A DNA stretch of 32,000 nucleotides from Kiritimatiella glycovorans (GCF_001017655.1 NZ_CP010904.1:780001-812000), one strand, 5' to 3'; shown: positions 11,725 through 27,767, counted from the stretch's first letter. Numbers and translations: made by a program. The notes: generated by a model not told the origin, from the letters alone.

Positions 11725-11903
11725 TCGTCAACGACAACTACATGGCCCCGTCGGCGACAACTACACTTCCCCATGTTGACGGGGCTGGTGGGCCCCGGGT
11801 TTCCGGGGTTTGAGGGCGATGGGCCGATAGGCCCGAGCCTTCCCCCTCCCACCCCGCAGGGGCACCCCCCATGGGGGGTGCGCGATTCTCACAATTGCGA
11901 TTT

Positions 11904-12665: not shown

Positions 12666-14149
12666 ACCTCCTCCGGCGCCAGCAGTTCGTCATAGGCGGC
12701 CAGATCCACCGGCAACGGCGCATGCTCCGACAACGTCGGCATCGGACGCGGACACGCCGAAAGCACCACGTCCAGGCGCGGGATCTCCCCGCGGTCGCGC
12801 AAGCCGCACAGTGCCGCTTCCACCTCACATTCCATCGTGGTGGCCGCGTGCTTGAGGATCTGCAGGTATTCCCGTTCCGCAGTCCGATCGTTGACCGCCG
12901 CGCACAGTGTCTCGTACGCCCACTGGAACGCGGAGGACGGAAACAGGTCAGCACGGAACCGGTAGTTCCGGAACGCCCCGGGCTTGCGCACCAATGAACC
13001 GATCACATGGCGATAGTTGATGTGGTGCGCGTGTTCATCCCGCAGCCATGGCGCAGTGAGCTGGCGCACGCCCCCGTAGAACACCTCGATGTGTTCCGCG
13101 TAGCGATGCACCGTCACCGTGTACCCGATCAGCCGGCTGGGTACCGAGTAGATCCGGCGCTTCACGTTGATAGTGCCCCAACTGCGTACAACGCACCGAT
13201 ACTCCGTGTATTCCGGCAGCCGGTCCACGTCGAGCGCCCGCATGTGTTTGAACTCTTCGGCCAGGCGGACGCGCCGCGTCTCGTTCACCCGCTGAAGCAC
13301 GCCATGAAGGAACTGCTCATACGCCGCCCGGCTGGCGAAGTCCCGCGACCCGCGCAACAACAGGTGTTGCTCGATCCGACGCTTCAGGGCGCCGTTCAGC
13401 GACTCCACATCCCCGTTCTCATGGGGACTGTCCACTTGGATCAGACGGGGAACCATCTCGAAGTGATCCATCAGCTCCAGGTAGGCGCGGTTGTACGCCC
13501 GCGGTTCTCCGCTGGCCTCCGCCGGCCGGTGGGTCGCTGCGCTCGAATGATCCATCCAGTGCTCCGCCGGCACACGGCCCAGCCGCGTCAGCGCGTTCTG
13601 AATCCCCGTACGCAGCGCCACCAGGCTTTCGCTATGGCAGATGCTGGCCCATTCCCAGTTCGAGTAGGTCAGCACGTTGTGACACAACTGGTGGTCGAAC
13701 GGTTCCCCGGCGATCGTGATCCCCAGCCGGTCCATGTGCGTGAAGTCTGTGGACATCCGCACGCCCGGCCGGTGCTCCTGCGCGAAGTACACCTCCTGCT
13801 CGGGCCCCGAAAGCGCTCGCCATTCACGTACCCGCCGCTGAAACGTCCGCAGTTGACCCTCCTGATACTTACCCGCCCGCTCCCGGCACAGCCACTCGAA
13901 CACCGTCTTGGCCTCCAGCTCCGGGCAGCCCTCGAACATCAGTCGGCACTCTTCCCAGTCCTCCGCGAACGGGTCCTCCCGGGTACGCCACCTGCGCTCA
14001 ACCGGCATCTCTGAGGGCAGTTTCCCGCACCTCAGGTACTTCTGCGCCGTCTTACGGTCCAGATCGGCCCGCAACGCAGCCTTGGACACGTTCCCTGTCC
14101 TTTCGTATTCTTCCATCAGCTTCCTCACTTTCCGGTCCGGGGTGACCAT
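12656..14149 (-). CDS. istA: IS21-family transposase IstA
   Basis: 497 aa with an N-terminal HTH region. The DDE-type core has typical IS21 blocks (STDFTH..., ...HENGDVESLNG...). Gene order is istA-istB. Confidence 0.9.
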   Translation of the reverse strand: MVTPDRKVRKLMEEYERTGNVSKAALRADLDRKTAQKYLRCGKLPSEMPVERRWRTREDPFAEDWEECRLMFEGCPELEAKTVFEWLCRERAGKYQEGQLRTFQRRVREWRALSGPEQEVYFAQEHRPGVRMSTDFTHMDRLGITIAGEPFDHQLCHNVLTYSNWEWASICHSESLVALRTGIQNALTRLGRVPAEHWMDHSSAATHRPAEASGEPRAYNRAYLELMDHFEMVPRLIQVDSPHENGDVESLNGALKRRIEQHLLLRGSRDFASRAAYEQFLHGVLQRVNETRRVRLAEEFKHMRALDVDRLPEYTEYRCVVRSWGTINVKRRIYSVPSRLIGYTVTVHRYAEHIEVFYGGVRQLTAPWLRDEHAHHINYRHVIGSLVRKPGAFRNYRFRADLFPSSAFQWAYETLCAAVNDRTAEREYLQILKHAATTMECEVEAALCGLRDRGEIPRLDVVLSACPRPMPTLSEHAPLPVDLAAYDELLAPEEVCA

Positions 14150-14206
14150 CGGCCCTCCTTTCTTTCCAAAAAGAGAGCCTCCAGCACCCCCGGTTAGTGG
14201 GGAAGT

Positions 14207-14677
14207 CTAATTGTCGTCACTGGGGAAGTGTAATTGTCGCTGCGCAATCGGCAGTTCCTCCAGCTCGAAAAGGTCGTGTGACATGCGGCGGACACCTATG
14301 TTGTATTCCATCAGAAGTGTGACCAGCTGTTCACCATTCATGAGGCCCACGGGCGTTTTGTCCGGTTGATTGGCCTCCTTGATGGTTCCGGTGCTGAAGT
14401 CGCTAGTGGTAATGATCAGTCCCTGTTCATGCGCACCAAGGCTGCCGCGAACCTGTTGAACGGTCGGGCTCTGGATATTGCCTTTCCAGCGTTTGGCCTG
14501 AACAGCCATCTTTATGCGGACCACATCGCTGATCAGCAACGTGCCCCGGACATCGATGCCGCCATCGCCGCCGTACTTGGTCACCTCGATGCTTTCAAAG
14601 CCCATCTCCGCCAGCAGTTGACCAACAAGCTCCTCGAATTGTGCCGGGCTCAGATCGACTAAGCTCACCGGCGGCAA
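14207..14677 (-). CDS. Mrr-cat (restriction endonuclease, PD-(D/E)xK) domain protein, 3' end replaced by IS21 sequence
   Basis: LSPAQFEELVGQLLAEMGF...GGDGGIDVRG...AVQAKRW...VQQVRGSL...GLIITTSDFS is the Mrr_cat pattern. The last 11 codons (QRQLHFPSDDN*) are IS-derived. The annotated start is TTG inside attC-5, so the true start is uncertain. Confidence 0.75.
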   Translation of the reverse strand: MPPVSLVDLSPAQFEELVGQLLAEMGFESIEVTKYGGDGGIDVRGTLLISDVVRIKMAVQAKRWKGNIQSPTVQQVRGSLGAHEQGLIITTSDFSTGTIKEANQPDKTPVGLMNGEQLVTLLMEYNIGVRRMSHDLFELEELPIAQRQLHFPSDDN

Positions 14678-14721
14678 TGGAGCGCAGCGGAATTGCCGTC
14701 CGGTGCAGCGCCTTGTTATGT
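14653..14721 (-). other. attC-5 (attC of the Type III R-M cassette)
   Basis: The minus strand reads ACATAAC-AAGGC-GCT(G)CACCGG(A)CGGCAAT-13 nt loop-ATTGCCGCCGGTGAGC-TTA-GTCGATC. R'' ACATAAC overlaps the res stop codon and is the exact complement of GTTATGT at the cassette 5' end (19655-19661). Two extrahelical bases lie on the R''/L'' arm. The R' box is non-canonical (GTC rather than GTT), so the 3' limit is uncertain. Confidence 0.6.
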
Positions 14722-17400
14722 TTCTTTGTATTTTGTAAAGCCTGTCAGAACATCACTGAACGATTTCGGCGCATACTTCTCGAACCCTTCATCATCTACA
14801 AAGATGAAGTCATACACGACTTCCTGCTGCGCTCGATTCACATCGTCGCACCACTGCCTCAGCCGTTCCATTTTGGGCGGCACGTCCAGATCCTCCTGCC
14901 CTTTGGTCTCGACGATCACCACCCGGCCATCCGAAACCCGGACGATGAAGTCAGGATAGTAGTTCGAGATGTCGCCATCCGCATTCACGTAATCCAGCTT
15001 GAAGTGAACCGCCAGATAGTTCTTGGCATAGGAAACCACATCGGGGCAGTTCTCCAAAAAGTTGGCAAACTCCAGCTCAAAGTGGCTGTCGCCAATCACC
15101 CGGTTGAAGACAGACTTCTTGGGAATCATGTAGCCCTGATCCTTCACCACGAAGGGCCGCGTCTTGCGCAGCTTGATCGTATCGCGAATCTCCGCATCAC
15201 CCTTGTACCGCACCGTCAGCTCGTTGATCGCCTGCTTGAAGGTCTCGATGACCGTCTTGGTGGCGGCCAACTCGGAGAGATTCCGCAGCGTGTTCGGTGA
15301 CTCCAGATCGACCGCCTTACCGAACAGGCCGTCACCGACAAATCCCTTCACCTTGCCATAGAGCACATCGTAACCGCTCACCAGCCGCAGTTCCTTCATG
15401 ACTGTTTGGGCGAAATACCCGATCACGCTTCGGTAGTCCGCGATCCCCGCACTATCCAGCACCGTGGTGTGCGTGACCTCTCCCGTGGTGATGTCTTTGA
15501 AAACAATTTCGCGCTGCTCTTCCTCGCTGAACTCCTGATACGCCACCGTCTGAAAGGTGAAACGCCCCGCGTCCAAGTCCGCCAGGTTCTTGTATTCCCG
15601 GTAAACCCGTGGCGTCAGCACCGGGATTTCGATGTCCAGTGCGTCAATGTCCTTGTGGGTGTTCTCGTTGTCCACCTCTACGATAAGGGGAGTCTTCGGC
15701 TTGGTGCCTTCGCCCATCGCCTTGCGCTCCAGTTCGACACCCTCGGCCTGAATCGACTCCACAAAATCCATGAAGGCATCCGTGCCCACCACGCTGACAT
15801 ATTCCTCCGTGTTGCCCGGATACATCTTGCGCAGCCCGCGCCCCAGCGTCTGCTCGGGCAGGATGTTGCTCTTGGCCGAGTAGGCCCGCAGCCCGACAAT
15901 CGTCGTCACGTTGCGCACATCCCAGCCTTCCTTGAGCATCAGCACCGAGACGATTACCTTGTAGGGGCTCCCATTGGAATCGATCTCATTGGACTGCTTG
16001 CGCAGCAGCTCCAACTCTTCCTTCTTCTTCCCGGAAGCAGCCTCAGAGATTTCCCCGTTGTTCTTGGTGTGAATGGTCAGCACCCCGCCAGCCAGATCGG
16101 GATAACGATTCTCCAGATACTCCGCCACTTCATCGCAGTTACGCGTGTCGTCCGTCATCACGAACAGAATCGCCTTCTTGCCCATCTTCTGGTGCTCGTC
16201 GTAGGCCTTGCGCCACTCGATCACCCCCAGGTCCAGATAATCCGCATACTTCTCGGTGAACTTCGCGCTCTGCTTCTCCGAGAGCTTTGCCCGGCTCGGC
16301 GCATCCGGCAGCACCGGGTGCTTGACTACATTCTGCGAAATCGCCTCCACCAGCGGATAATCCGACACCGTCTGGACAAAAATAGCCCCGTTGTTGTGCT
16401 TGGGCGTCGCCGTCACATCCACTTGCAGGCTCAACGCGCCACCCTTCTGCAACAGCCGGTTGTGGATGTCCTCAATCGACTGAAACCACGCCAGCTTCGA
16501 GTCGTGAATGTGGTGCGCCTCGTCGTTGAGCACCATCAGCTCGTCAATGTCGCGCACGATCATCCCCAGATCCACTTTCGAGTCCGTCGTTGCGCCCGTC
16601 GGTCGCTTGCCGAGGAAGTAGTCCATCGTGTTCTCATCCTCGGGCGAGGGCATGATCTCCTCGCCCGAATAAACCCGGTGAATATTGGTCAGGAAAATGT
16701 TCCCCGTCGCCCGCGTCACGTTCACCTCGTCCTGCTTGTGCAGGGTGAGTTGGAAATCGTCGCGCCAGTTGTGCCCGTCGTAGCCATTGTCCGGCAGCAC
16801 CGGATCCTCGAAGAAAATCCGCAGCCCCTGAAAGTCGTGATAAATCCGGTCCAGCACGATGATGTTCGGGGCGATCACCAGAAAATTGCGCGCCAGCTCC
16901 GAATCCGGCTCATAGAGCCTGTGGTAAAAGCTCCACGCCAGGGCAAGGCTCATCACCTTGGTCTTGCCCGAGCCCGTCGCCATCTTGATGACAAAGCGCC
17001 GCCACGTCTCGTCAAACATCCCCGCCGATACTGCGCCGCTGCTGTCAAAGCGCATCAGGTCATACTTGTCCTTCGCGCCCACCACATCATGCAGGTAGAT
17101 GATCGTCTCCATCGCCTCCCGCTGGGCGAAGTAATACTCGAAGCTACCGATGATCGCGTCCTTCCCCGGCAGCAGGTGCGGCTCCTTGAACCACCAGGTG
17201 AGCAGACTCTTGCTCGTGTCGCTCGCGCCCACGTAGCCGCCGTCACGGAACGCCTTCACATTGCGGCGCAGTTGCGCCACCAGCGGCGGCATCAGCTTGT
17301 CCATCGTCGTGTCGCGCAAGGCCTCGTCTGCCGGGAACCAGCGCACCTCGGGATCGAGGATCGCGTGCGGGGAGTCGGGAAAATCAGGATGCAGCGCCAT
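14716..17400 (-). CDS. res: Type III restriction enzyme, Res subunit (SF2 helicase-nuclease)
   Basis: Helicase motif I MATGSGKTKVM, motif II LNDEAHHI, and later SF2 motifs are present, with a C-terminal nuclease-like region. The start overlaps the mod stop (TAATG). Confidence 0.85.
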   Translation of the reverse strand: MALHPDFPDSPHAILDPEVRWFPADEALRDTTMDKLMPPLVAQLRRNVKAFRDGGYVGASDTSKSLLTWWFKEPHLLPGKDAIIGSFEYYFAQREAMETIIYLHDVVGAKDKYDLMRFDSSGAVSAGMFDETWRRFVIKMATGSGKTKVMSLALAWSFYHRLYEPDSELARNFLVIAPNIIVLDRIYHDFQGLRIFFEDPVLPDNGYDGHNWRDDFQLTLHKQDEVNVTRATGNIFLTNIHRVYSGEEIMPSPEDENTMDYFLGKRPTGATTDSKVDLGMIVRDIDELMVLNDEAHHIHDSKLAWFQSIEDIHNRLLQKGGALSLQVDVTATPKHNNGAIFVQTVSDYPLVEAISQNVVKHPVLPDAPSRAKLSEKQSAKFTEKYADYLDLGVIEWRKAYDEHQKMGKKAILFVMTDDTRNCDEVAEYLENRYPDLAGGVLTIHTKNNGEISEAASGKKKEELELLRKQSNEIDSNGSPYKVIVSVLMLKEGWDVRNVTTIVGLRAYSAKSNILPEQTLGRGLRKMYPGNTEEYVSVVGTDAFMDFVESIQAEGVELERKAMGEGTKPKTPLIVEVDNENTHKDIDALDIEIPVLTPRVYREYKNLADLDAGRFTFQTVAYQEFSEEEQREIVFKDITTGEVTHTTVLDSAGIADYRSVIGYFAQTVMKELRLVSGYDVLYGKVKGFVGDGLFGKAVDLESPNTLRNLSELAATKTVIETFKQAINELTVRYKGDAEIRDTIKLRKTRPFVVKDQGYMIPKKSVFNRVIGDSHFELEFANFLENCPDVVSYAKNYLAVHFKLDYVNADGDISNYYPDFIVRVSDGRVVIVETKGQEDLDVPPKMERLRQWCDDVNRAQQEVVYDFIFVDDEGFEKYAPKSFSDVLTGFTKYKET

Positions 17401-19607
17401 TACTTGCCCCCTCCCACGTTAATTTCCACAATCGTCATCGTGTCGTTGCCGAAGATGTCCACCACTTTCACCGCGATCTTGCGCCGCCCCGGCGTGACCT
17501 CATGCGCCACGCTGGTCAACTCCAGCGAGCGATCCTTCTTGGTGCGGAAGCTCTGCCACTCGTTCTCGAAAATGTAGTCGCCGGTCCACTCCTCGCGGGT
17601 CTCACCGCTTTCCAGGTCCTGGATGCGAATGATCTCCCGCTTGCTCTCGAAATCGAAATCCACGCTCCAGTAATCGATCCAGTCGGTCCAATGGTCGGTC
17701 AGGGTCTCCCGCTGCATCACGCCCTTCTTGTCCTTGCTCAGCTTCACGATCTGGCCTTTCTCCACCACGATCTTGCTGCCCGCTCGCTTGGTCTTGCCCA
17801 GCGCCTCCTCCGCCTGGGCGATGCTGTCCTGCGAGTAGAAGACCGAAAAATCCGTCAGCTCCACTGCCACCGTCGCGGGCTGGCCTTTCTTGCCGGCCTT
17901 CACATGGGGCTTGACCTCGATGAAGCTCACGTCGTGGAAGACCACCTGGTTCTTTTCCACCGCCCGCTTGTCGAAAACCTCAGCCGGAATGTATTTCGGG
18001 GCGATATCGATGCCCTTGGCCCGCGCCTCATCCAGCACATTGGGGAACAGCCCCATCTCGAACTCGAAGCCGAGGATGTCCACCTTGGTGATGTGCTTCT
18101 TGCGGCACTCCAGAATGATCTCCTCCACGAACAGCCGCGTCACCGGCAGGTTCACCGGCCCGATCGCCACCAACCGCCCGGCCCGCTTGCCATGGAAACT
18201 CTCGAACTGCGCCACCGGCTCCGCCCGGTAGGCCCGCAGGATCAATTCGAGAAACGCCGCCTCTTTCTGCGCCAACTGCTGCGCCTGCTCTTCCTCGCGC
18301 AGGTTCGGGTTGACCCCCACGAAATGCTGCCGCTCGTATTTGCCGAGGTTGAGGATTTCAAAGGCGCGGTAGTCCTGCCCCTCCGCCTTGCGCTGCCGCT
18401 GCACCCCGATCATCCGCTTGCGGGTGGTGTGGATGGCGAACTTGCTCAGATCACTTCCTATCCACCTTCTCTGAGGCGCAAAATAATAGTGAAGTTTTTC
18501 CTTCCCATTTGCTTGTTTGACTCTCTTTACCCTCAACCCTTGGGCGACAGCTATTGTCGTTCCTGATCCACAAAAGAAATCCGCGATCAAGTCGTCGGGA
18601 TTGGTGCTTGCGTCTATAATTCGCTGAATCAGCTCAACTGGCTTCTGTGTCGGGTATCCAACTCGCTCAGTTTTATCTGAAGGCATGATCGGCTGAATTG
18701 TCCACCAATCCTCAGGGTGTTTCCCCTTTTCATTCGGCACATAGCCTTCATAGACGGCATTATCTCGATACGACTTGTCATACCTACTGGGGTCAGAGTT
18801 TAAAACATCCTCGGAGTATGGAATCCGAACATCGTCCAAATTAAAGGTGTAAGCGTCACCTTTTGAATAGCGGAATATCGTATCGTGCTTTGGTGCAAAA
18901 TCATTCTTTGGAACACCACCCCCGCGATAACACCAGCGGATTTGGTTTCTCTGGTTACCGCTGCCGAAAATGTCATCCATCACCAATCTAATAAAGCTAT
19001 TCACCCGCCAATCACAATGCACATAAATACTCCCATCCTCGGCGAGCAGGTCCCGCATGAGGATGAGGCGTTCGTAAATCATGGCGATGAAGGAATCCGC
19101 CCCTTTGCCCCAGGTGTCGCGGTAGGCGATTTCTTCGAGGATGTTGGGCTTTTTCGTGAAGGTGTCGCCGCCGATCTCGATATCCATGGAGAAATCCGCG
19201 CCCACGTCGAAGGGCGGGTCGATGTAGATCAGCTTCAGCCCGCCCTGCGCCTCGATCTCCTCGCGCAGCGGCCCGTTTTTCAAAGACGACAGGATCAGCT
19301 TGTTGTCGCCCCAGATCAGCTTGTTCGTCCAGCCCTTGAGCTGCCGCCCCCGCGTATCAACATCAAACAAACTGGTTTGGGTGTATTCGGCTGTATCCGA
19401 TGTCGATTCCGCCCGAGGCTCATCCACCTGCTCGATGGTCTGGAACGGCAGCACCAGATTGCAGACCTCGTTCGTCTTCCCGTTCCAGACCAGCTCCACC
19501 TCCCGCTTATCCTCGAACAGCAGAAAGCGATACTTCTCCGGCAACTCCTTGCCCGCCTCAATGAAGCGGACGATCTCCTGTTTTTCCTGATCAGTCAGTT
19601 TCAGCAT
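17400..19607 (-). CDS. mod: Type III R-M DNA methyltransferase, Mod subunit (beta-class N6A/N4C)
   Basis: Motif IV LIYIDPPFD precedes motif I FFCGSGTT, which is the beta-class order. 735 aa, immediately upstream of res. Confidence 0.85.
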   Translation of the reverse strand: MLKLTDQEKQEIVRFIEAGKELPEKYRFLLFEDKREVELVWNGKTNEVCNLVLPFQTIEQVDEPRAESTSDTAEYTQTSLFDVDTRGRQLKGWTNKLIWGDNKLILSSLKNGPLREEIEAQGGLKLIYIDPPFDVGADFSMDIEIGGDTFTKKPNILEEIAYRDTWGKGADSFIAMIYERLILMRDLLAEDGSIYVHCDWRVNSFIRLVMDDIFGSGNQRNQIRWCYRGGGVPKNDFAPKHDTIFRYSKGDAYTFNLDDVRIPYSEDVLNSDPSRYDKSYRDNAVYEGYVPNEKGKHPEDWWTIQPIMPSDKTERVGYPTQKPVELIQRIIDASTNPDDLIADFFCGSGTTIAVAQGLRVKRVKQANGKEKLHYYFAPQRRWIGSDLSKFAIHTTRKRMIGVQRQRKAEGQDYRAFEILNLGKYERQHFVGVNPNLREEEQAQQLAQKEAAFLELILRAYRAEPVAQFESFHGKRAGRLVAIGPVNLPVTRLFVEEIILECRKKHITKVDILGFEFEMGLFPNVLDEARAKGIDIAPKYIPAEVFDKRAVEKNQVVFHDVSFIEVKPHVKAGKKGQPATVAVELTDFSVFYSQDSIAQAEEALGKTKRAGSKIVVEKGQIVKLSKDKKGVMQRETLTDHWTDWIDYWSVDFDFESKREIIRIQDLESGETREEWTGDYIFENEWQSFRTKKDRSLELTSVAHEVTPGRRKIAVKVVDIFGNDTMTIVEINVGGGK

Positions 19608-19654
19608 TTGCTGTCCTTAGGGATGTTCTGATGCCGCGTAAACAGTGGCTAGAA

Positions 19655-19735
19655 ACATAACGTCGCGAGTCACCGGACATCGGAAGACGCGCTCGGCGCG
19701 GCTTTCGATGGTACGGTGGACTCGTCTTGTTGGCT
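19655..19735 (-). other. attC-4 (attC of the HEPN / T5orf172-CSD cassette)
   Basis: The minus strand reads AGCCAAC-AAGAC-GAGTC(C)ACCG-..CATCG(A)AAG-c-CGCGC-cga-GCGCG-t-CTT(C)CGATG..-CGGTGACTC-GCGAC-GTTATGT. It is 81 bp and forms a nearly continuous hairpin with an extrahelical C on the R''/L'' arm. R'' is the exact complement of GTTGGCT at 22593-22599. Confidence 0.8.
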
Positions 19736-19758
19736 GGTCTCTATTGCCTTCGAAATCT

Positions 19759-21102
19759 GGTTCTTTCTCGAATTTTGTGGATGAAAGCGTGAGACATCGC
19801 CCCAGATCTGCGTAAATGGTTGTGAACGCAATCATATACAGCAGGAGGAAGCGATGTCTCAGAAGTCATTGTTCACAGATTTGCTCGGGATTCAAGGATG
19901 GGGCGTAGTCGCCGGTGGAATTCGTATCGAGGAAGATGGCAGTGTGACGGTTCGAATCGATCGACGCAGTGTTGGTTACAGCTGTGGTCAGTGCGGGGAG
20001 GGGCTGTTGTTCACATACGACACGCAGCCACCGCGACGGATCCGGGACTTCCCGATCTGGGGCCGACAGTGCTACTTGGAAGTCGAGTTCGTCCGTGTGG
20101 ATTGCCCTCGTTGCGGCGTGGTCATCGAGGGCTTGGACTGGGTTGAACGGTATGCTCGCCAGACCGTCCGTTATGAGAAGTACGTGGCAGGCTTGTGCGA
20201 TCTGCTGCCAGTCAGCGATGTGGCCGCCCTGGAGGGCCTGAGTAAAGATGCCGTTTACCGAATGGACAAGAAGTGGCTGCAACGGCGTGATGCCAAGCGA
20301 GAGGAGCGCACGGTGCGATATCTGGGGATCGATGAGATCTCGCTGCGCAAGGGGCACCGCTACGCCACGGTTTTCTATGACTTGGAGCGCAAGGAGGTGA
20401 TCGGCTTGGTAAAGACACGCAAGGAGCGCGCTGTGGGCGGGTTCTTCCGCTGCTTCGGTCGCAAGCGCTGCAAGGCTGTCGAGGCCGTGTGCATGGACCT
20501 CTGGCAGCCCTTCCTGAACAGCGTCCGACGGCACTGCAAGAACGCCGTCGTTGTCTTCGATAAGTTCCATGTCTACAAGTACCTCAGTGATGCCATTGAG
20601 GCCGTACGTCGCCACGAGCAGTCCATATGCTCTGACGAAGAGGGCAAGCTGATCAAGGGCACGCGCTGGCTCTGGCTCAGGGCCTCACGCAACCTGAAGC
20701 GCAAACACAAACAGACTCTCGAACAGATCATGGCAATCAACCGACAATTACAGAAAGCGTACCTGCTCAAGGAGGACTTCGAGGCGTTCTACGCGTGCTC
20801 GACACGCGAAGAGGCCGAAGCCTTCCTGAAGGGGTGGATCAAGCGGTGTAAGCAGAGCCGGCTGGAGCCATTCATCAAGCTCGCCAAGCGCCTGGTCCGG
20901 TGGTCGCACGGCATCTTCTCCTACTTCGAATATCGCATCACCAACGGCGTGGCCGAGGGCATCAACAACAAAATCAAAGTACTCAAACGCAGGAGCTATG
21001 GCTTCCACGATGAGCACTACTTCTTCCTCAAAATACTCAATGCAACTGGAGCCCTACCCAGCTTCGAGCAACTCAGTGACCCACAATTTTAGCGAAAGAA
21101 CC
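19759..21102 (+). mobile_element. ISL3-family insertion sequence, copy 1 (1344 bp), 8-bp TSD CGAAATCT
   Basis: IRs are GGTTCTTTCTCGAATTTTGTGG (left) and GGTTCTTTCGCTAAAATTGTGG (reverse complement of right). CGAAATCT occurs at 19751-19758 and 21103-21110. There is a single 412-aa transposase ORF. Confidence 0.9.
19854..21092 (+). CDS. ISL3-family transposase
   Basis: 412 aa with an N-terminal zinc-finger-like CGQCG...CPRCG and a DDE_Tnp_ISL3-type core. RBS AGGAGGAAG precedes the ATG. Confidence 0.9.
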   Translation: MSQKSLFTDLLGIQGWGVVAGGIRIEEDGSVTVRIDRRSVGYSCGQCGEGLLFTYDTQPPRRIRDFPIWGRQCYLEVEFVRVDCPRCGVVIEGLDWVERYARQTVRYEKYVAGLCDLLPVSDVAALEGLSKDAVYRMDKKWLQRRDAKREERTVRYLGIDEISLRKGHRYATVFYDLERKEVIGLVKTRKERAVGGFFRCFGRKRCKAVEAVCMDLWQPFLNSVRRHCKNAVVVFDKFHVYKYLSDAIEAVRRHEQSICSDEEGKLIKGTRWLWLRASRNLKRKHKQTLEQIMAINRQLQKAYLLKEDFEAFYACSTREEAEAFLKGWIKRCKQSRLEPFIKLAKRLVRWSHGIFSYFEYRITNGVAEGINNKIKVLKRRSYGFHDEHYFFLKILNATGALPSFEQLSDPQF

Positions 21103-22029
21103 CGAAATCTTGGCATCAATCGCGCACGGGCCTTGGGGGCGTCTGCCGAGAAGGAAGGTAACTTCGGCCCCTGGGGTCGCCAGTTCTTGATCGCTGCTGG
21201 AAAGCTGCGAACGGTGGAGGAAGACGTCTGGTTGCTTGTCACACGAGACAAACCCGAAACCCCGACTCCGATCGAACCAGATGACGCGACCCGTCCACCT
21301 GTCCCTTTGCTGTGACTCCTCAAGATAGGCATCGATAGCCTCGACTGCTTTCCTGAGCGACAGGGCGAAGAACTCGCGATCCATCCGTAACCGGTAATCA
21401 ACCAAGCGGCGGTGAATCTCGGCCTCCGCCTTCTGGGCGTCAAGGACCCGATAGGTGCGCCGTGCAGCCCAAGGTACAAGAACGCCCGTTGCGGAGTTGA
21501 TCTCACGAACCCGATCGGCCACGGACCTGTCCGTCCTGCCGATCTTCAGTACCTCGGGTTGCTCACGAGTCGACAGGATGTAGATCCATCCCGCCCCTTC
21601 AGAGTAGGTCTGCGATGCCAGGCCGTTCTGGTAGACGTGGAGGTACTGCAACACGTTGGTTGAAATCAACGCTTGCAGACATTCTGCATAGGCGTCCTCG
21701 TCACCGGCGATAGCTGCTCGACGGAGCGAGACAAGGTGACTGGCCATCTGTCTCAGGGCTTTGCGCGGAGGGGAGCCTAGCTCACTGAATACAGTAAACC
21801 AGTCCCACTGGTCCTCCCGCACGCAGCGGTTGGCCATGCCCTTGGCTTCGCTGAGGAGCTCAGGGACGACCTCTCCGATACTGAGATTGCCCGCGAGTAT
21901 ATCGCAAAGATGCTGGACTGCATCGTCATACCGCCGACGCATTCGGGTCGAGATGGGTGCCATACCGAAGCCCCACTTCGCGATGTGCATCCTCTGAGAT
22001 TGCGGCCCTCTTCCTTCCACGGAGGTCAT
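21073..22029 (-). CDS. T5orf172 (GIY-YIG superfamily) + cold-shock-domain fusion protein, 3' tail interrupted by ISL3 copy 1
   Basis: The N-terminal about 140 aa are unassigned. T5orf172-like block: GWIYILSTREQPEVLKIGRTDRSVADRVREINSATGV...AEAEIHRRL...REFF. CSD block: GRVIWFDRSRGFGFVSCDKQPDVFLHRSQL...GAEVTF. The last 9 codons are IS-derived. The native ORF (335 aa) resumes at 19750 and stops at 19670. Confidence 0.75.
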   Translation of the reverse strand: MTSVEGRGPQSQRMHIAKWGFGMAPISTRMRRRYDDAVQHLCDILAGNLSIGEVVPELLSEAKGMANRCVREDQWDWFTVFSELGSPPRKALRQMASHLVSLRRAAIAGDEDAYAECLQALISTNVLQYLHVYQNGLASQTYSEGAGWIYILSTREQPEVLKIGRTDRSVADRVREINSATGVLVPWAARRTYRVLDAQKAEAEIHRRLVDYRLRMDREFFALSLRKAVEAIDAYLEESQQRDRWTGRVIWFDRSRGFGFVSCDKQPDVFLHRSQLSSSDQELATPGAEVTFLLGRRPQGPCAIDAKISGSFAKIVGH

Positions 22030-22583
22030 GGTTCAAGACCCTCCGCGCCAGCGGCGATATCGTCTAATCCTTCGCTGGCTGTCTGGTCGTGAGTGACACT
22101 GCAGATCTCAGGCACGATCATATTGAAGTCGTGCTTCAGCGAAGCTGTTTGGCTTAGAGCGTACTCAAGGCTGATGAACAGGGGTTGAGGCCATTTCTGT
22201 CCGTTCTTATCAAAGGGGTACCGAGTGTACTCGGCGTGCGCCCAAGGTGGATTCCATTTGCTGAAGGCGTCTATGTCGCTGACAAAGGTGAAGCGGTCGC
22301 CGTAGTGTGACCGAAAATCGTTGTGGAGAGTGTGAAGATTGTGGCCAGCCACGGGTTCGCCTGTTGCGGACATGATCGCGCCCTTGAAGAAGATCTCAAG
22401 AGCTTGCTCGAAGAGATGTGCAGCGGCTCGAACATGCTCGAAAGAGCGAGGGAGGCGGGATCTCACAATCGCGCTGAACGCATGATGACTGCAATCCAAG
22501 TAGGCTTGGGCGAGCCGAAATAGCTGATCCACAGGCGGCCAGTTTTCGCTGTCGCGTGATGTGATTCTGTCTGTCGCTGTCAT
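22026..22583 (-). CDS. HEPN-like domain protein (185 aa from ATG 22583)
   Basis: AAHLFEQALEIFFKGAIMSATGEPVAGHNLHTLHNDF and HAEYTRYPFD resemble the PF05168-type HEPN pattern (QA.EK.LKA....g....H.L..L ... RYP). The GTG at 22604 used by the ORF track lies inside the preceding attC, so ATG 22583 is preferred. The stop overlaps the next ATG (ATGA). Confidence 0.55.
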   Translation of the reverse strand: MTATDRITSRDSENWPPVDQLFRLAQAYLDCSHHAFSAIVRSRLPRSFEHVRAAAHLFEQALEIFFKGAIMSATGEPVAGHNLHTLHNDFRSHYGDRFTFVSDIDAFSKWNPPWAHAEYTRYPFDKNGQKWPQPLFISLEYALSQTASLKHDFNMIVPEICSVTHDQTASEGLDDIAAGAEGLEP

Positions 22584-22592
22584 TCGTTTCTC

Positions 22593-22652
22593 AGCCAACG
22601 TCACGGCTGAGGCGACGGCGTTTCGCCGGTAGCCTCCGGCCGTTTGTTCGAG
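22593..22652 (-). other. attC-3 (attC of the small secreted-protein cassette)
   Basis: The minus strand reads CTCGAAC-AAA-CGGC(CG)GAGGC-ta-CCGGCG-aaa-CGCCG-tc-GCCTC(A)GCCG-TGAC-GTTGGCT. It is 60 bp. R'' is the exact complement of GTTCGAG at 22990-22996. Confidence 0.7.
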
Positions 22653-22657
22653 GGCCC

Positions 22658-23851: not shown

Positions 23852-23931
23852 GCCCAACGCCCACCTTGACCGGCGCAGTGAGGCCGCGTCCGCGCGGCCT
23901 TACTGCGTACGTGTCGAAGGTGTTGTTCGCT
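23852..23931 (-). other. attC-1 (attC of the first, attI-proximal cassette)
   Basis: The minus strand reads AGCGAAC-AACA-CCTT(C)GAC(A)CG-ta-CGCAGT-a-AGGCCGCG-cgga-CGCGGCCT-c-ACTGCG-c-CGGTCAAGG-TGGGC-GTTGGGC. It is 80 bp with two extrahelical bases on the R''/L'' arm. R'' is the exact complement of GTTCGCT at 24927-24933. It overlaps the stop of the 138-aa ORF. Confidence 0.8.
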
Positions 23932-24316
23932 CCTCTCCATCGATTCTTCTTCGGATCTCGTTCACGGCTTGAATGTCCGTTGGATCAATGCCCTCCTTTC
24001 GCAACGTGCGAAGAAACTCAAGGATGCGCCCGCTCTTGGGGCGCCACTCTGAACCTGCTTCAATCACTGGTGCGAGGTCGTCAACCAGAGAGAGAACTTG
24101 CCTTGTCTCTCGCTCCGTCACGCACTGAAGAATCCCCGCACGGATCAGGCCGCTGACCCCGCCAGATTCACGGGTGCTGGCAAGGCGTCGATATTCAAAT
24201 GCGATCTCACGGAGGATTAGACGGCGTGTTAGCTTCTCTTGGAAGGCGGAATGCAACCGGTACCCCAAGAGCACGCCGAGTAACGTCGCCAGAATGGACA
24301 GTAGTGCCGTCTCCAA
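23900..24316 (-). CDS. Hypothetical membrane-anchored protein (138 aa)
   Basis: N-terminal TM helix METALLSILATLLGVLLGY, followed by a charged soluble region. It starts 18 nt downstream of the 186-aa ORF and lies in the same cassette. Confidence 0.55.
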   Translation of the reverse strand: METALLSILATLLGVLLGYRLHSAFQEKLTRRLILREIAFEYRRLASTRESGGVSGLIRAGILQCVTERETRQVLSLVDDLAPVIEAGSEWRPKSGRILEFLRTLRKEGIDPTDIQAVNEIRRRIDGEERTTPSTRTQ

Positions 24317-24334
24317 GTGTGCTGCCTCCCTATA

Positions 24335-24895
24335 TCAATCCCACCATTGCCTGAACTGGGTGCAGATGAGCAGCCCTATCGTCTTGGGTAGCTCTCTGCA
24401 CGGAACGTACTGGTCTTCCGAATCCTGCACCTTGCTTGTCACCCAAGAGCCGAGAACTGTAGGTGCGATAAGGTCGTGCTCTACGCCTTCAGCTTGAAGC
24501 CGTGGACACTCCGCAGCGAAGTACTGCTGACAGTCACGATACGCTTCCATGAGTGCATTCTCGGCTGATGTCCTGTCAAGGAACTGACCGGTTTCTGCCC
24601 CTGCTGGTATCGATTTGGGAAGAAGCCGTGGCAAGGTACCCCACACGGCGTGAAACGCCGACTCTGTCTCGCGTTGCGTATATCGCTTGCTCTCAAGAAC
24701 GAGAACGCCGAAGAAAGTCGCGGCAACACCCGTGAAGTAGGCCCACGTTGCCTTGTGCGGCTCGGCTATGTCGGGGAAGTCTTTGCCGAGCCTGTCGAAC
24801 CACCTAGGCATTGCCGTAGCGACCGCTTCAGTTAGCTCGTTGGCACGAGCCTGGAGTTCCCTCTTTGATTGGCTTCCTCCGAATAGCCCCATCAT
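24335..24895 (-). CDS. Hypothetical protein (186 aa) with one predicted hydrophobic helix
   Basis: RBS GGAGGAAG precedes ATGATG. There is a hydrophobic segment WAYFTGVAATFFGVLVL. I recognise no motif. It is the first ORF after attI. Confidence 0.55.
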   Translation of the reverse strand: MMGLFGGSQSKRELQARANELTEAVATAMPRWFDRLGKDFPDIAEPHKATWAYFTGVAATFFGVLVLESKRYTQRETESAFHAVWGTLPRLLPKSIPAGAETGQFLDRTSAENALMEAYRDCQQYFAAECPRLQAEGVEHDLIAPTVLGSWVTSKVQDSEDQYVPCRELPKTIGLLICTQFRQWWD

Positions 24896-25093: not shown

Positions 25094-26437
25094 GGTTCTT
25101 TCTCGAATTTTGTGGATGAAAGCGTGAGACATCGCCCCAGATCTGCGCAAATGGTTGTGAACGCAATCATATACAGCAGGAGGAAGCGATGTCTCAGAAG
25201 TCATTGTTCACAGATTTGCTCGGGATTCAAGGATGGGGCGTAGTCGCCGGTGGAATTCGTATCGAGGAAGATGGCAGTGTGACGGTTCGAATCGATCGAC
25301 GCAGTGTTGGTTACAGCTGTGGTCAGTGCGGGGAGGGGCTGTTGTTCACATACGACACGCAGCCACCGCGACGGATCCGGGACTTCCCGATCTGGGGCCG
25401 ACAGTGCTACTTGGAAGTCGAGTTCGTCCGTGTGGATTGCCCTCGTTGCGGCGTGGTCATCGAGGGCTTGGACTGGGTTGAACGGTATGCTCGCCAGACC
25501 GTCCGTTATGAGAAGTACGTGGCAGGCTTGTGCGATCTGCTGCCAGTCAGCGATGTGGCCGCCCTGGAGGGCCTGAGTAAAGATGCCGTTTACCGAATGG
25601 ACAAGAAGTGGCTGCAACGGCGTGATGCCAAGCGAGAGGAGCGCACGGTGCGATATCTGGGGATCGATGAGATCTCGCTGCGCAAGGGGCACCGCTACGC
25701 CACGGTTTTCTATGACTTGGAGCGCAAGGAGGTGATCGGCTTGGTAAAGACACGCAAGGAGCGCGCTGTGGGCGGGTTCTTCCGCTGCTTCGGTCGCAAG
25801 CGCTGCAAGGCTGTCGAGGCCGTGTGCATGGACCTCTGGCAGCCCTTCCTGAACAGCGTCCGACGGCACTGCAAGAACGCCGTCGTTGTCTTCGATAAGT
25901 TCCATGTCTACAAGTACCTCAGTGATGCCATTGAGGCCGTACGTCGCCACGAGCAGTCCATATGCTCTGACGAAGAGGGCAAGCTGATCAAGGGCACGCG
26001 CTGGCTCTGGCTCAGGGCCTCACGCAACCTGAAGCGCAAACACAAACAGACTCTCGAACAGATCATGGCAATCAACCGACAATTACAGAAAGCGTACCTG
26101 CTCAAGGAGGACTTCGAGGCGTTCTACGCGTGCTCGACACGCGAAGAGGCCGAAGCCTTCCTGAAGGGGTGGATCAAGCGGTGTAAGCAGAGCCGGCTGG
26201 AGCCATTCATCAAGCTCGCCAAGCGCCTGGTCCGGTGGTCGCACGGCATCTTCTCCTACTTCGAATATCGCATCACCAACGGCGTGGCCGAGGGCATCAA
26301 CAACAAAATCAAAGTACTCAAACGCAGGAGCTATGGCTTCCACGATGAGCACTACTTCTTCCTCAAAATACTCAATGCAACTGGAGCCCTACCCAGCTTC
26401 GAGCAACTCAGTGACCCACAATTTTAGCGAAAGAACC
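25094..26437 (+). mobile_element. ISL3-family insertion sequence, copy 2 (1344 bp), 8-bp TSD ATAAATGT
   Basis: Same IRs as copy 1. ATAAATGT occurs at 25086-25093 and 26438-26445. It differs from copy 1 at one position that I could see (C at 25148 versus T at 19813). Confidence 0.9.
25189..26427 (+). CDS. ISL3-family transposase (identical protein to 19854..21092)
   Basis: The 412-aa translation is identical, and every shadow ORF in the track is duplicated too. Confidence 0.9.
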   Translation: MSQKSLFTDLLGIQGWGVVAGGIRIEEDGSVTVRIDRRSVGYSCGQCGEGLLFTYDTQPPRRIRDFPIWGRQCYLEVEFVRVDCPRCGVVIEGLDWVERYARQTVRYEKYVAGLCDLLPVSDVAALEGLSKDAVYRMDKKWLQRRDAKREERTVRYLGIDEISLRKGHRYATVFYDLERKEVIGLVKTRKERAVGGFFRCFGRKRCKAVEAVCMDLWQPFLNSVRRHCKNAVVVFDKFHVYKYLSDAIEAVRRHEQSICSDEEGKLIKGTRWLWLRASRNLKRKHKQTLEQIMAINRQLQKAYLLKEDFEAFYACSTREEAEAFLKGWIKRCKQSRLEPFIKLAKRLVRWSHGIFSYFEYRITNGVAEGINNKIKVLKRRSYGFHDEHYFFLKILNATGALPSFEQLSDPQF

Positions 26438-26462: not shown

Positions 26463-27767
26463 ATGATCACGTTGCCGAAGGCGCTTTTGGATAAATATGA
26501 CGATTGGCTGGAACGGGAGGCGGTTGATGCCAACCGTCATGGCGAGCACCGGAAATGGCTACGCTATTATCTGGATTTCTGCCACAAATACGGGAATGGA
26601 TACCTTGACGAACTGAGCCTTGGTCTATTCGCCGAAAAGCTGCAAGACAAAGGTCAGCGCCCTTTCCAGATCGAGGAAGCGTCACGTGCCGTTCGTTTGT
26701 ATTACCGAATGGCCGGGGAAACGAAAGATGCCCTGCCGACACCTGCCTGCGAACCTGAAAGAATCTCAAAACTGCCTCCGGCCACCATGAAATCTGAAGG
26801 TGCGTCCTGGGTGGGTGAACTGACAAAGCTCAGAGAAGAAATCCGGGTTCGTCATTATTCTGCCAAAACGCTGTCGAGTTATTATGGCTGGGCCAGAAAG
26901 TTCCAGGCTTTTGTCCGGAGCAAGTCTCCCGCATTGCTTGATACCGACGATGTCAAACGGTATTTGACATGGCTGGCGGTGGAAAGGGATGTTGCGGCCT
27001 CAACACAGAATCAGGCATTCAATGCGCTGTTGTTTTTTTATCGACACGTTCTGGGCAAAGAATTCGGCAAAGTTGATGGCGTTGTACGCGCCAAGCGGCG
27101 TAAATACGTGCCGGTAGTGCTGTCCCGGGAGGAGATCGACACAGTTCTAAGTAAACTTGAGCCTCCTTTTGACCTTGTTGTAAAACTGCTTTATGGCTGT
27201 GGCCTCCGGATATCGGAGTGTCTGGATCTTCGAGTGAACGCATTCAACCTTGAGATAGGTGTGCTGACAATTCATGACGGCAAAGGCGGAAAGGACAGAA
27301 CGGTGCCTTTGCCCGAAACCTTGGTTCCGGCTATTCGTTCTCAACTGGAGGTGGTTCGCTCCATTCTTGATCAGGATTTGTCTACGGAAAGCTTCGCCGG
27401 GACGTTTCTGCCACACGCACTGGAACGCAAATATCCAAAAGCTCCGACAGAATTTATCTGGCAGTGGTTTTTCCCGGCCATATTGCTGACAAAAGTTTCA
27501 GGCGCAAATGAGTTCAGACGCTATCATTTGCATGTGTCGCATGTGAACAAAGCCATCAAAGCGGCATCCGATTCCACAACGCTGACAAAGCGCGTGACGG
27601 CGCACACTTTCCGCCACAGCTTCGCCAGTCATCTTCTTCAGGCAAATTACGATATCCGGACGATACAGGAATTACTGGGGCATAGTGATGTGCAGACAAC
27701 AATGATCTACACGCATACGGTCAAAAGTTCGACAAAGAAAGAGCCTCGCAGTCCGTTGGATTTTTGA
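26463..27767 (+). CDS. intI: Integron integrase IntI (tyrosine recombinase) with about 115-aa N-terminal extension
   Basis: Catalytic residues in context: GCGLRISECLDLRV, HTFRHSFASHLL, LLGHSDVQTTMIYTH. The IntI-specific insertion ALERKYPKAPTEFIWQWFFPA...RRYHLHVSHVNKAIK is present. RBS AGAGGA upstream. Confidence 0.9.
   Translation: MITLPKALLDKYDDWLEREAVDANRHGEHRKWLRYYLDFCHKYGNGYLDELSLGLFAEKLQDKGQRPFQIEEASRAVRLYYRMAGETKDALPTPACEPERISKLPPATMKSEGASWVGELTKLREEIRVRHYSAKTLSSYYGWARKFQAFVRSKSPALLDTDDVKRYLTWLAVERDVAASTQNQAFNALLFFYRHVLGKEFGKVDGVVRAKRRKYVPVVLSREEIDTVLSKLEPPFDLVVKLLYGCGLRISECLDLRVNAFNLEIGVLTIHDGKGGKDRTVPLPETLVPAIRSQLEVVRSILDQDLSTESFAGTFLPHALERKYPKAPTEFIWQWFFPAILLTKVSGANEFRRYHLHVSHVNKAIKAASDSTTLTKRVTAHTFRHSFASHLLQANYDIRTIQELLGHSDVQTTMIYTHTVKSSTKKEPRSPLDF

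What the first reader, a model, noticed from the sequence alone, without database searches (positions are those of the whole stretch)
19661..22598. Cassette 4: HEPN-like protein coupled to a T5orf172(GIY-YIG)-cold-shock-domain fusion, a candidate undescribed two-gene defence or toxin module
One integron cassette carries two ORFs joined by an ATGA overlap. The first is a 185-aa HEPN-like protein of the PF05168 pattern. The second is a protein (335 aa in its reconstructed native form, before the ISL3 insertion) made of an unassigned about 140-aa N-terminal region, a T5orf172/GIY-YIG-superfamily domain and a C-terminal CspA-like cold-shock (OB-fold, GFGF RNP1) domain. HEPN proteins usually pair with MNT nucleotidyltransferases or sit in Cas, Abi or TA systems. 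I know of no described system that pairs HEPN with a T5orf172-CSD protein. The architecture suggests a nucleic-acid-sensing or binding partner (CSD) plus nuclease-like domains, as in abortive infection or TA modules. It is packaged as a mobile cassette next to a Type III R-M cassette and McrBC. ISL3 copy 1 replaced only the last 26 low-complexity codons, after the CSD, so the domains are intact.
Basis: partly seen in the sequence, partly recalled or inferred. Interest (0 to 1): 0.85.

Follow-up and report, generated by a model that had tools for sequence, protein, structure and literature searches.

The report
Two unrelated defence-type genes fused in one cassette
The two genes really do share one integron cassette in Kiritimatiella glycovorans, but they are not a conserved pair: each occurs alone or with other neighbours everywhere else, so this is most likely an accidental fusion of two independent candidate anti-phage genes.

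Summary
The cassette boundaries, the two ORFs, the ATGA overlap, the ISL3 insertion with an 8-bp duplication and the 335-aa native protein are all confirmed. T5orf172 and the cold-shock domain (CSD) are firmly supported. HEPN is supported only indirectly, and the family lacks the Rx4-6H RNase motif.

None of 80 genome loci holding gene B relatives has a gene A relative within 8 kb, and no neighbour is conserved. None of 11 loci holding gene A relatives encodes gene B. The two closest gene B relatives (88% and 77% identity) sit alone, directly after an attC core (CGTTGGCTGA).

The A-B junction in the window is chimeric. Up to ATGACCTC it matches the 3' end of a solo gene A relative. From CGTGGAAGG onward it matches the 5' boundary of solo gene B cassettes, with the GTT core degraded. 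It does not fold like an attC.

Gene B belongs to a widespread stand-alone family: an unannotated N-terminal domain, then T5orf172, with or without a CSD. The family is repeatedly embedded in Type I R-M operons and defence islands.

Best reading: two independent single-gene candidate defence modules locked together by loss of an attC. Interest is moderate.

The parts
22585..22657 (-). attC of the preceding cassette. Its R' core GTTGGCT (G 22599 | TT 22598) marks the start of cassette 4.
   Evidence: The bottom strand folds as an imperfect hairpin, z -2.9 against shuffles. The same core, CGTTGGCTGA, precedes solo gene A and solo gene B cassettes in L001, L089 and L085.
22026..22583 (-). Gene A: a 185-aa solitary HEPN-like protein of the PF05168 type. 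Its conserved residues are E63-L-F-x-K67, H81-x-L-x-x-L and R121-Y-P-x-D125. It has no Rx4-6H motif.
22000..22035 (-). Chimeric A-B junction. The ATGA lies at 22029-22026 and a degraded attC R' core, CGTGG, at 22021-22017. The ancestral gene B start codon is lost here.
   Evidence: Alignment A7. The left half is colinear with the 3' end of the gene A relative in L088. The right half is colinear with the 5' cassette boundary of gene B in L089 and L085. There is no attC-like hairpin (z -0.43).
21073..22029 (-). Gene B as interrupted: 318 aa, the last 9 codons read into the IS. The native form is 335 aa.
21610..21990 (-). Gene B N-terminal all-helical domain (about residues 14-140), with motifs KWGFGMAP, KGMxNR and DQWDWF. 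It is unannotated and is the best-conserved part of the family.
   Evidence: Alignments A1 and A6. No Pfam or PDB match. hhalign gives 98-99% probability to segments of an archaeal plasmid 'restriction endonuclease' and a Streptomyces plasmid helicase.
21331..21591 (-). Gene B T5orf172 domain (GIY-YIG superfamily), residues 147-233.
   Evidence: Pfam 56.4 bits against a cut-off of 20. There are 79 BFVD fold matches at E<=1e-3, led by T5orf172, Bro and GIY-YIG proteins. Invariant residues are Y150, K162, G164, T166, R168, R173, E176, N178, E202 and D217-R-E-F-F221.
21115..21294 (-). Gene B cold-shock domain, residues 246-305, with RNP1-like GFGFV and RNP2-like VFLH.
   Evidence: Pfam 44.3 bits against a cut-off of 27. 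Foldseek against PDB gives CspA, CspB and YB-1 with TM-scores to target of 0.75-0.87.
19759..21102 (+). ISL3-family insertion sequence, copy 1 (transposase 19854-21092). Flanked by the 8-bp target duplication CGAAATCT at 19751-19758 and 21103-21110.
19655..19750 (-). Displaced 3' end of native gene B (26 codons, stop at 19672-19670), overlapping the cassette's own attC. R'' AGCCAAC is at 19735-19729 and R' is G 19661 | TT 19660.
   Evidence: Reconstruction. The bottom strand forms a hairpin of -28 kcal/mol, z -4.9. The same tail and attC follow the gene B relative in L089.
26463..27767 (+). Integron integrase (context). It is divergent from the cassette array and separated from it by ISL3 copy 2 (25094-26437).
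   Evidence: TIGR02249 at 368 bits against a cut-off of 265. Pfam Phage_integrase plus SAM_4. Copy 2.

Best explanation
Cassette 4 is a composite of two formerly independent integron cassettes. They are now locked together because the attC between them has been lost, leaving only a degraded R' core, CGTGG.

Gene A is a solitary PF05168-type HEPN protein from a small family that lives in defence islands. Gene B is a stand-alone protein from a widespread, horizontally mobile family. That family has an unannotated helical N-terminal domain followed by T5orf172, and some members add a cold-shock domain.

I infer that the two genes act independently, each as a single-gene anti-phage or abortive-infection-type module. 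For gene B the proposed mechanism is as follows. The cold-shock domain binds single-stranded nucleic acid. The T5orf172 domain, a GIY-YIG-type nuclease, cuts it. The conserved N-terminal domain acts as the regulatory or sensing part. This domain is also found fused to other nucleases and helicases.

The ISL3 insertion removed only a 26-residue tail that is encoded by the attC and is missing from most family members, so gene B is probably still functional.

Shown: the anatomy, the domain assignments, the lack of co-occurrence, the chimeric junction and the genomic contexts. Inferred: the defence role, nuclease activity, nucleic-acid binding and functional independence.
For: 1. No co-occurrence.
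- tblastn of gene A against 80 genome loci with gene B relatives (8 kb flanks) finds nothing with E<0.9.
- All-against-all clustering of the +-2 neighbours gives no cluster beyond near-duplicate genomes.
- No conserved small ORF flanks gene B.
- Gene A has only 6 relatives in the 5.8-billion-protein word-indexed search, against 538 for gene B.
- None of the loci holding gene A relatives encodes gene B.

2. Gene B occurs as its own cassette. In L089 (88% identity) and L085 (77%) it starts 10-12 nt after CGTTGGCTGA.

3. The junction is chimeric. It has a degraded GTT core, the ancestral gene B start codon is lost, and it does not fold as an attC hairpin (z -0.43, against -2.9 and -4.9 for real attCs). 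The ATGA also follows the gene A relative in L088, where it opens only a 14-codon ORF.

4. Gene B is found in defence contexts.
- It sits inside Type I R-M operons: hsdR-B-hsdM-hsdS in L003, hsdM-B-hsdS-hsdR in L097, and hsdS-hsdR-B in L030.
- Type I components lie within 8 kb in about 9 of about 75 loci.
- It lies next to AIPR and putAbiC in Pseudomonas aeruginosa.
- It lies next to a helicase plus an MZB-domain protein (DISARM-like), and next to an AAA_15/21 ATPase.
- It occurs in a prophage.
- Here it neighbours a Type III R-M cassette and McrBC.

5. Gene A is found in defence contexts: next to Abi_alpha, AbiJ_NTD4 plus HEPN_AbiV, DNA methyltransferases and the N-terminus of an HsdM.

6. 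The domain evidence is given.

7. There is precedent. Chromosomal integron cassettes encode small anti-phage systems, including a HEPN-only single gene named Esos (bioRxiv 10.1101/2024.07.02.601686).
Against: - No phenotype is known for any member of either family.
- Many gene B neighbourhoods are housekeeping genes. There were 109 Pfam families among 150 neighbours, so the defence association is an enrichment and not a rule.
- The closest gene A relatives are each tightly followed by a different gene with no attC between them: a multi-pass membrane protein in L001 and Abi_alpha in L002. This could mean gene A needs a partner.
- Gene A lacks the Rx4-6H catalytic motif, so an RNase role is doubtful.
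- The frame of gene B is open back to the ATGA, and GGAGG lies 10 nt upstream. Translational coupling is therefore physically possible.
- The gene-calling used for neighbours was a crude longest-ORF heuristic.
Confidence: 0.6

Rival explanations
1. Gene A and gene B are a real functional pair. In one version, the HEPN-like protein senses or regulates and the T5orf172-CSD protein is the effector. In another, they are a toxin and antitoxin. A broader version holds that gene A is a modular first gene that works with swappable downstream effectors.
For: The two genes overlap by ATGA, with a GGAGG 10 nt upstream, and no attC lies between them. The closest gene A relatives are likewise followed, with no attC between, by effector-like genes: a 130-aa multi-pass membrane protein in L001 (a cassette bounded by attC cores) and Abi_alpha with an 8-nt overlap in L002. 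The gene A domain is also found fused to a P-loop module (P0139) or to a C-terminal transmembrane helix (P0208).
Against: The pair is unique to this genome in all collections searched. Gene B is solo in more than 100 loci and forms its own cassette in its closest relatives. The junction is a visible splice of two cassette ends. The ATGA exists without gene B in L088. More distant gene A relatives sit beside unrelated genes with gaps of 25-136 nt.
Confidence: 0.13
2. Gene B is a selfish, homing-endonuclease-like mobile gene and not a host defence gene. On this view it spreads by cutting and inserting into conserved loci such as R-M operons, as the T5orf172 homing endonucleases of phages do.
For: T5orf172 is the nuclease domain of many phage homing endonucleases (PMC10448857). 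Gene B is scattered thinly across many phyla in variable positions, including inside operons and a prophage. Its nearest fold neighbours are viral T5orf172 and Bro proteins.
Against: [quoted passage not shown] Matches to the phage collection cover only the T5orf172 segment; no record covers 80% of the query. Insertion sites are not homologous across loci. The family has a strongly conserved extra N-terminal domain that is shared with non-homing enzymes. In this window and in L089 it moves as an integron cassette.
Confidence: 0.15
3. Neither gene does anything relevant here. The cassette is decaying cargo: the attC is lost, an IS has inserted, and the array is cut off from the integron promoter by the second ISL3 copy.
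For: Two ISL3 copies disrupt the integron, one inside this cassette and one between intI and the array. The ancestral start codon of gene B is mutated. No convincing promoter lies inside the cassette.
Against: Both ORFs are intact across all conserved domains. All family-invariant residues of gene B are kept. Gene A keeps its family-invariant residues. The IS removed only a non-conserved tail.
Confidence: 0.1

Closest known systems
PADLOC candidate PDC-S57 (single-gene T5orf172 'phage defence candidate', not experimentally validated)
   Same: It is a single gene with a T5orf172 domain. Gene B hits three PDC-S57 profiles, best E 1.9e-19.
   Different: Only the T5orf172 part aligns (profile positions 5-96 of 212). 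The N-terminal domain and the CSD of gene B are not part of PDC-S57, and the C-terminal half of PDC-S57 is absent from gene B.
T5orf172 homing endonucleases of ICP1-like and other phages (Odn, gp174 and others; PMC10448857)
   Same: Both use the same nuclease domain subfamily of GIY-YIG, joined to a nucleic-acid-binding module. They are also fold neighbours.
   Different: The phage enzymes use Zn-finger (CapR, DUF723, DUF4397) or RepA_N DNA-binding domains and sit in phage genomes. Gene B uses a cold-shock OB fold plus a novel N-terminal domain, and sits in chromosomes, R-M operons and integron cassettes.
Esos, a HEPN-like-only single-gene anti-phage cassette of the Vibrio cholerae chromosomal integron (bioRxiv 10.1101/2024.07.02.601686)
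   Same: It is a small protein with only a HEPN-like domain, carried as an integron cassette.
   Different: No sequence was available for comparison, so homology to gene A is untested. Gene A has no phenotype data.
HEPN-MNT toxin-antitoxin pairs
   Same: Gene A has a HEPN fold of the PF05168 type.
   Different: No nucleotidyltransferase partner was found next to gene A or any of its relatives that I examined. The Rx4-6H RNase motif is absent from the gene A family.
Cold-shock-domain effectors of type V / Se72 retrons
   Same: The CSD is used in a defence context. Gene B hits PADLOC CSD_V (4.6e-10) and NCBIfam retron_eff_Se72 (1.5e-7).
   Different: Both scores are far below the family cut-offs. 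There is no reverse transcriptase or msr/msd nearby. In gene B the CSD is fused to a nuclease domain.
Accessory defence genes embedded in Type I R-M operons (for example the anticodon nuclease PrrC; from my own knowledge)
   Same: Gene B relatives are inserted between the hsd genes of Type I operons (L003, L097, L030).
   Different: The protein families are unrelated, and no functional link to the R-M enzyme has been shown for gene B.

Membership tests
HEPN domain (Pfam PF05168 type) | Match to the family profile above the curated threshold | tested here: inconclusive
   The window protein scores 14.9 bits, E 0.031, against a cut-off of 22. However, 27 of 58 aligned family members match at E<=0.01, best 7.8e-8.
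HEPN domain (Pfam PF05168 type) | Helical-bundle fold similar to solved HEPN structures | tested here: met
   The model has pLDDT 73. The top four PDB matches are HEPN proteins (1wol, 4nqf chains A and B, sacsin 3o10), with probabilities 0.85-0.99 but weak E-values of 0.13-0.34.
HEPN domain (catalytic RNase type) | Conserved Rx4-6H motif | tested here: not met
   H81 is invariant, but no Arg or Lys is conserved 4-6 residues before it. R121-Y-P-x-D is not followed by a conserved His.
HEPN-MNT toxin-antitoxin | Adjacent minimal nucleotidyltransferase gene | tested here: not met
   An attC lies upstream of gene A in the window. None was seen among the annotated or scanned neighbours of gene A relatives; not every neighbour could be profile-scanned.
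T5orf172 / GIY-YIG superfamily | Profile match above threshold, and matching fold | tested here: met
   PF10544 scores 56.4 bits against 20, and MUG113 scores 45.3 against 22.3. There are 79 BFVD matches at E<=1e-3, led by T5orf172 and GIY-YIG proteins.
T5orf172 / GIY-YIG superfamily | Conserved core residues (Tyr in strand 1, K/Y-I-G in strand 2, Arg, Glu, Asn) | tested here: met
   Y150, K162-I-G164, R168, R173, E176, N178, E202 and E219 are invariant in 22 and 21 sequences. Which of them is catalytic is inferred, not shown.
T5orf172 / GIY-YIG superfamily | Nuclease activity | not testable with these tools
   This needs biochemistry.
Cold-shock domain (PF00313) | Profile match above threshold, OB fold and RNP1/RNP2 aromatic motifs | tested here: met
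   Scores 44.3 bits against 27. Fold matches to CspA, CspB and YB-1. GFGFV and VFLH are present, and G259, F260 and H272 are invariant.
PADLOC PDC-S57 | Match over the whole profile | tested here: not met
   Only positions 5-96 of 212 align.
Integron gene cassette | Integron integrase nearby | tested here: met
   TIGR02249 scores 368 bits against a cut-off of 265.
Integron gene cassette | attC with R''/R' cores and a bottom-strand hairpin at the 3' end, and G|TT boundaries | tested here: met
   attC at 19735-19655 has z -4.9. The preceding attC at 22657-22585 has z -2.9.
Integron gene cassette (single unit) | No attC between the two ORFs | tested here: met
   The ORFs overlap. The junction does not fold (z -0.43) and has only a degraded CGTGG core.
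Conserved two-gene defence or toxin system | The gene pair co-occurs in other genomes | tested here: not met
   Gene A is next to gene B in 0 of 80 genome loci. Gene B is present in 0 of 11 loci with gene A relatives. The closest gene B relatives are solo.
T5orf172 homing endonuclease | Zn-finger (CapR, DUF723, DUF4397) or comparable site-specific DNA-binding domain, and residence in a phage or intron | tested here: not met
   No such Pfam hit. Phage matches cover only the nuclease segment.
ISL3 insertion sequence | DDE_Tnp_ISL3 transposase, terminal inverted repeats and an 8-bp target duplication | tested here: met
   PF01610 at E 7.7e-81. The repeats and duplications are shown.

The most novel reading that the evidence does not exclude
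The gene A family could be a modular first gene that pairs with swappable downstream effectors. The candidates seen are the T5orf172-CSD nuclease here, a multi-pass membrane protein in L001, Abi_alpha in L002, and P-loop or transmembrane modules when fused. On this reading the window's pair is one working instance of an undescribed modular two-gene defence architecture. It would have been assembled by cassette fusion, and gene B's unannotated N-terminal domain would be a second, independent novelty.
Probability: 0.12. Interest if true: 0.7.

Novelty: new variant of a known kind. Interest (0 to 1): 0.38.

Why it matters
The proposed new two-gene system does not hold up, which saves effort on the pair as such.

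What remains of value is the following:
- It is a clear example of two integron cassettes becoming fused through loss of an attC. This is one way new gene combinations can arise.
- Gene B belongs to a widespread, uncharacterised family of probable stand-alone nucleases. The family is repeatedly found inside Type I restriction-modification operons and defence islands, which makes it a reasonable candidate for a new single-gene anti-phage protein.
- The gene B N-terminal domain is strongly conserved and unannotated, and it also occurs in other nucleases and helicases. Its role may be worth finding out.

None of these has experimental support yet.

Tried and rejected
- I considered that the attC between gene A and gene B is still present but hidden in the coding tail of gene A. 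I rejected this. The 101-nt junction and the equivalent region of L088 do not fold better than shuffles (z -0.43 and -0.69), while true attCs give -2.9 and -4.9.
- I considered a small conserved partner ORF next to gene B, such as an antitoxin under 70 aa. Clustering all stop-to-stop peptides within 500 nt either side found only gene B's own N-terminus and synteny among close Streptomyces relatives.
- I tried to assign the gene B N-terminal domain by Pfam (28 sequences) and by a profile against PDB sequences. Only chance-level coiled-coil hits came back.
- A profile of the gene B T5orf172 domain against PDB sequences gave nothing.
- Gene A has no match in the plasmid collection or in viral contigs.
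- Literature searches for T5orf172 with cold shock and defence, for PDC-S57, for GIY-YIG with CSD and anti-phage, and for CSD with retron effector found no paper describing this architecture.
- The Esos sequence was not in the held supplement.
- Rfam and tRNA scans of the window were empty.
- The promoter and terminator scan of the cassette gave nothing convincing.

Full report
**What is there**

The window comes from the Kiritimatiella glycovorans chromosome. Proteins P0001 and P0122 carry that name. An integron integrase lies at 26463-27767 on the plus strand (TIGR02249, 368 bits against a cut-off of 265). It faces away from an array of minus-strand cassettes.

The finding's coordinates are exact cassette boundaries. 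The preceding attC ends in GACG|TTGGCTGAG, with G at 22599 and TT at 22598. The cassette's own attC ends in CGACG|TTATGT, with G at 19661 and TT at 19660. Both attCs fold as the expected imperfect bottom-strand hairpins, with z -2.9 and -4.9 against shuffles.

Three things lie inside the cassette:
- Gene A runs 22026-22583 and encodes 185 aa.
- Gene B runs 21073-22029 and encodes 318 aa as found. It overlaps gene A by ATGA.
- An ISL3 element spans 19759-21102. It has an 8-bp target duplication, CGAAATCT, and a near-identical second copy 5335 nt away.

Removing the IS restores a 335-aa gene B. An 88%-identical metagenomic relative (P0002, L089) ends in the same 28-residue tail followed by the same attC core. 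The reconstruction is therefore correct.

The tail is encoded by the attC itself, whose R'' core AGCCAAC lies at 19735-19729. Most family members lack this tail.

**Domain assignments**

Gene B has a T5orf172 domain (PF10544, E 4.5e-15) and a cold-shock domain (PF00313, E 1.7e-11). An AlphaFold model has mean pLDDT 86.8. Its cold-shock domain matches CspA, CspB and YB-1 in the PDB. Its T5orf172 domain matches dozens of viral T5orf172, Bro and GIY-YIG models.

Residues 14-140 of gene B form an all-helical domain with the motifs KWGFGMAP, KGMxNR and DQWDWF. It is the best-conserved part of the family. It has no Pfam or PDB match.

The same domain occurs inside a 349-aa 'restriction endonuclease' on a Halomicrobium plasmid and inside a 1183-aa helicase on a Streptomyces plasmid. 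hhalign gives probabilities of 98.9% and 98.4%.

Gene A matches Pfam HEPN only weakly on its own (E 0.031, below threshold). A full HMMER scan found about 204 cluster representatives of its family. Of 58 aligned members, 27 hit PF05168. The four best PDB fold matches of its model are HEPN proteins.

The gene A family conserves E63-L-F-x-K67, H81-x-L-x-x-L and R121-Y-P-x-D125. It does not conserve the Rx4-6H RNase motif.

**Is it a two-gene system?**

The evidence says no.
- Gene B has 538 relatives in the word-indexed search. Gene A has six.
- A scan of 185,579 species genomes found 117 gene B relatives, of which 80 were fetched with 8-kb flanks. None has a gene A relative nearby.
- Clustering the four nearest neighbours across loci gave no conserved partner. 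A search for small flanking ORFs gave none either.
- Among 150 neighbours there were 109 different Pfam families.
- None of the 11 loci with gene A relatives (L001, L002, L083, L088, L090-L093, L100, L102, L103) encodes gene B.

The two closest gene B relatives stand alone. In L089 and L085 the gene begins 10-12 nt after the attC core CGTTGGCTGA.

**The junction**

Aligning the window's A-B junction with these loci shows a splice.
- Up to ATGACCTC the window follows the 3' end of the gene A relative in L088. There the same ATGA opens only a 14-codon ORF.
- From CGTGGAAGGAAG onward it follows the 5' boundary of solo gene B cassettes (CGTTGGCTGAAAGGAAG).
- The essential GTT core is degraded to GTG, and the ancestral gene B start codon is lost.
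- The junction does not fold like an attC (z -0.43).

The simplest reading is that two cassettes became one when the attC between them was lost. The ATGA overlap belongs to the end of gene A and is not a sign of coupling.

**What the genes probably do**

The gene B family comes in a form of about 300 aa with a CSD and a form of about 235-250 aa without one. It is spread thinly over many phyla.

Gene B relatives are repeatedly found in defence settings:
- It sits inside Type I R-M operons: hsdR-B-hsdM-hsdS in L003, hsdM-B-hsdS-hsdR in L097, and hsdS-hsdR-B in L030.
- Type I components lie within 8 kb in about 9 of about 75 loci. By my rough estimate this is far more than chance.
- It lies beside AIPR and putAbiC in Pseudomonas aeruginosa.
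- It lies beside a DISARM-like helicase and MZB-domain pair, and beside an AAA_15/21 ATPase.
- It lies in a prophage.
- In this window it neighbours a Type III R-M cassette and McrBC.

PADLOC recognises only its T5orf172 part, as the unvalidated candidate PDC-S57, and its CSD.

I therefore propose that gene B is a stand-alone nuclease-type defence protein. The CSD would bind single-stranded nucleic acid, T5orf172 would cut, and the N-terminal domain would regulate or sense. All of this is inferred.

Gene A relatives also sit among defence genes: Abi_alpha, AbiJ_NTD4 plus HEPN_AbiV, DNA methyltransferases and an HsdM. A HEPN-only cassette named Esos is known to protect Vibrio cholerae (bioRxiv 10.1101/2024.07.02.601686).

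**What stays open**

The three closest gene A relatives with usable flanks are each followed, with no attC between, by a different gene:
- gene B here;
- a multi-pass membrane protein in L001, a cassette bounded by attC cores;
- Abi_alpha in L002.

The gene A domain is also found fused to a P-loop module or to a transmembrane helix. This could be repeated accidental fusion. It could also mean that gene A works with swappable partners. I give the functional-pair reading about 13%.

A homing-endonuclease-like selfish role for gene B is a second rival, at about 15%. It is weakened by three things: gene B lacks the usual Zn-finger DNA-binding domains, no phage record holds a full-length relative, and insertion sites are not homologous.

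**Verdict**

The domain calls are mostly right. The 'undescribed two-gene module' is not supported. The cassette is best seen as two independent candidate defence genes fused by attC loss.

The more interesting items are the uncharacterised gene B family and its N-terminal domain. Novelty: a new variant of a known kind. Interest: moderate.

Noticed in passing
window 21610-21990 (-); L094 4710-5759; L095 2418-5969: The gene B N-terminal domain (KWGFGMAP...KGMxNR...DQWDWF) has no Pfam or PDB match. It recurs inside a Halomicrobium plasmid 'restriction endonuclease' (residues 96-201) and a Streptomyces plasmid 1183-aa helicase (residues 862-967). It appears to be an undescribed mobile domain of nucleic-acid enzymes.
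   Followed up: partly
L003 5571-12117; L097 1061-8703; L030 3499-8705: Gene B relatives are inserted inside Type I restriction-modification operons, between the hsd genes. Type I components lie within 8 kb in about 9 of about 75 gene B loci.
   Followed up: partly
L001 2965-4070; L002 582-1563: Close gene A relatives head two-gene units with different second genes and no attC between: a 130-aa multi-pass membrane protein in L001 and an Abi_alpha protein in L002. Whether gene A needs a partner is unresolved.
   Followed up: partly
window 14600-19660 (-): The Type III R-M genes (Res 14716-17400, Mod 17400-19607) lie between two related attC-like sites. The inverted match 14698-14725 / 19651-19678 reflects these sites. 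This would make a cassette of about 4.9 kb, unusually large for an integron.
   Followed up: partly
window 25094-26437 (+): ISL3 copy 2 (target duplication ATAAATGT) sits between the integrase gene and the first cassette. It may cut the array off from the integron promoter and attI.
   Followed up: no
window 23900-24895 (-): Two further ORFs (186 aa and 138 aa) are only 18 nt apart with no attC between them. Neither has a Pfam or PADLOC hit. This may be another two-gene cassette of unknown function.
   Followed up: no
window 22026-22604 (-): The public annotation gives gene A as only 115 aa (P0122). Homologues support the 185-aa form starting at ATG 22583.
   Followed up: yes
window 4500-14150: The stretch from about 4.5 to 11.5 kb has lower G+C (about 45-50%, against about 65% in the flanks). 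This region carries RhuM, PRiA4_ORF3, DUF6880 and McrBC (8329-11673), followed by an IS21-type element (istA 12656-14149, istB 11904-12665).
   Followed up: no
L083 6643-6984: The 113-aa gene downstream of a distant gene A relative carries an R-N-D-A-Q-H motif, which is Rx4H and HEPN-like. That locus may therefore hold two different HEPN-type genes in tandem.
   Followed up: no
L098 1618-12921: A 63%-identical gene B relative lies in a prophage-like element, between an integrase / HNH_3 / DUF6694 block and the portal gene.
   Followed up: no
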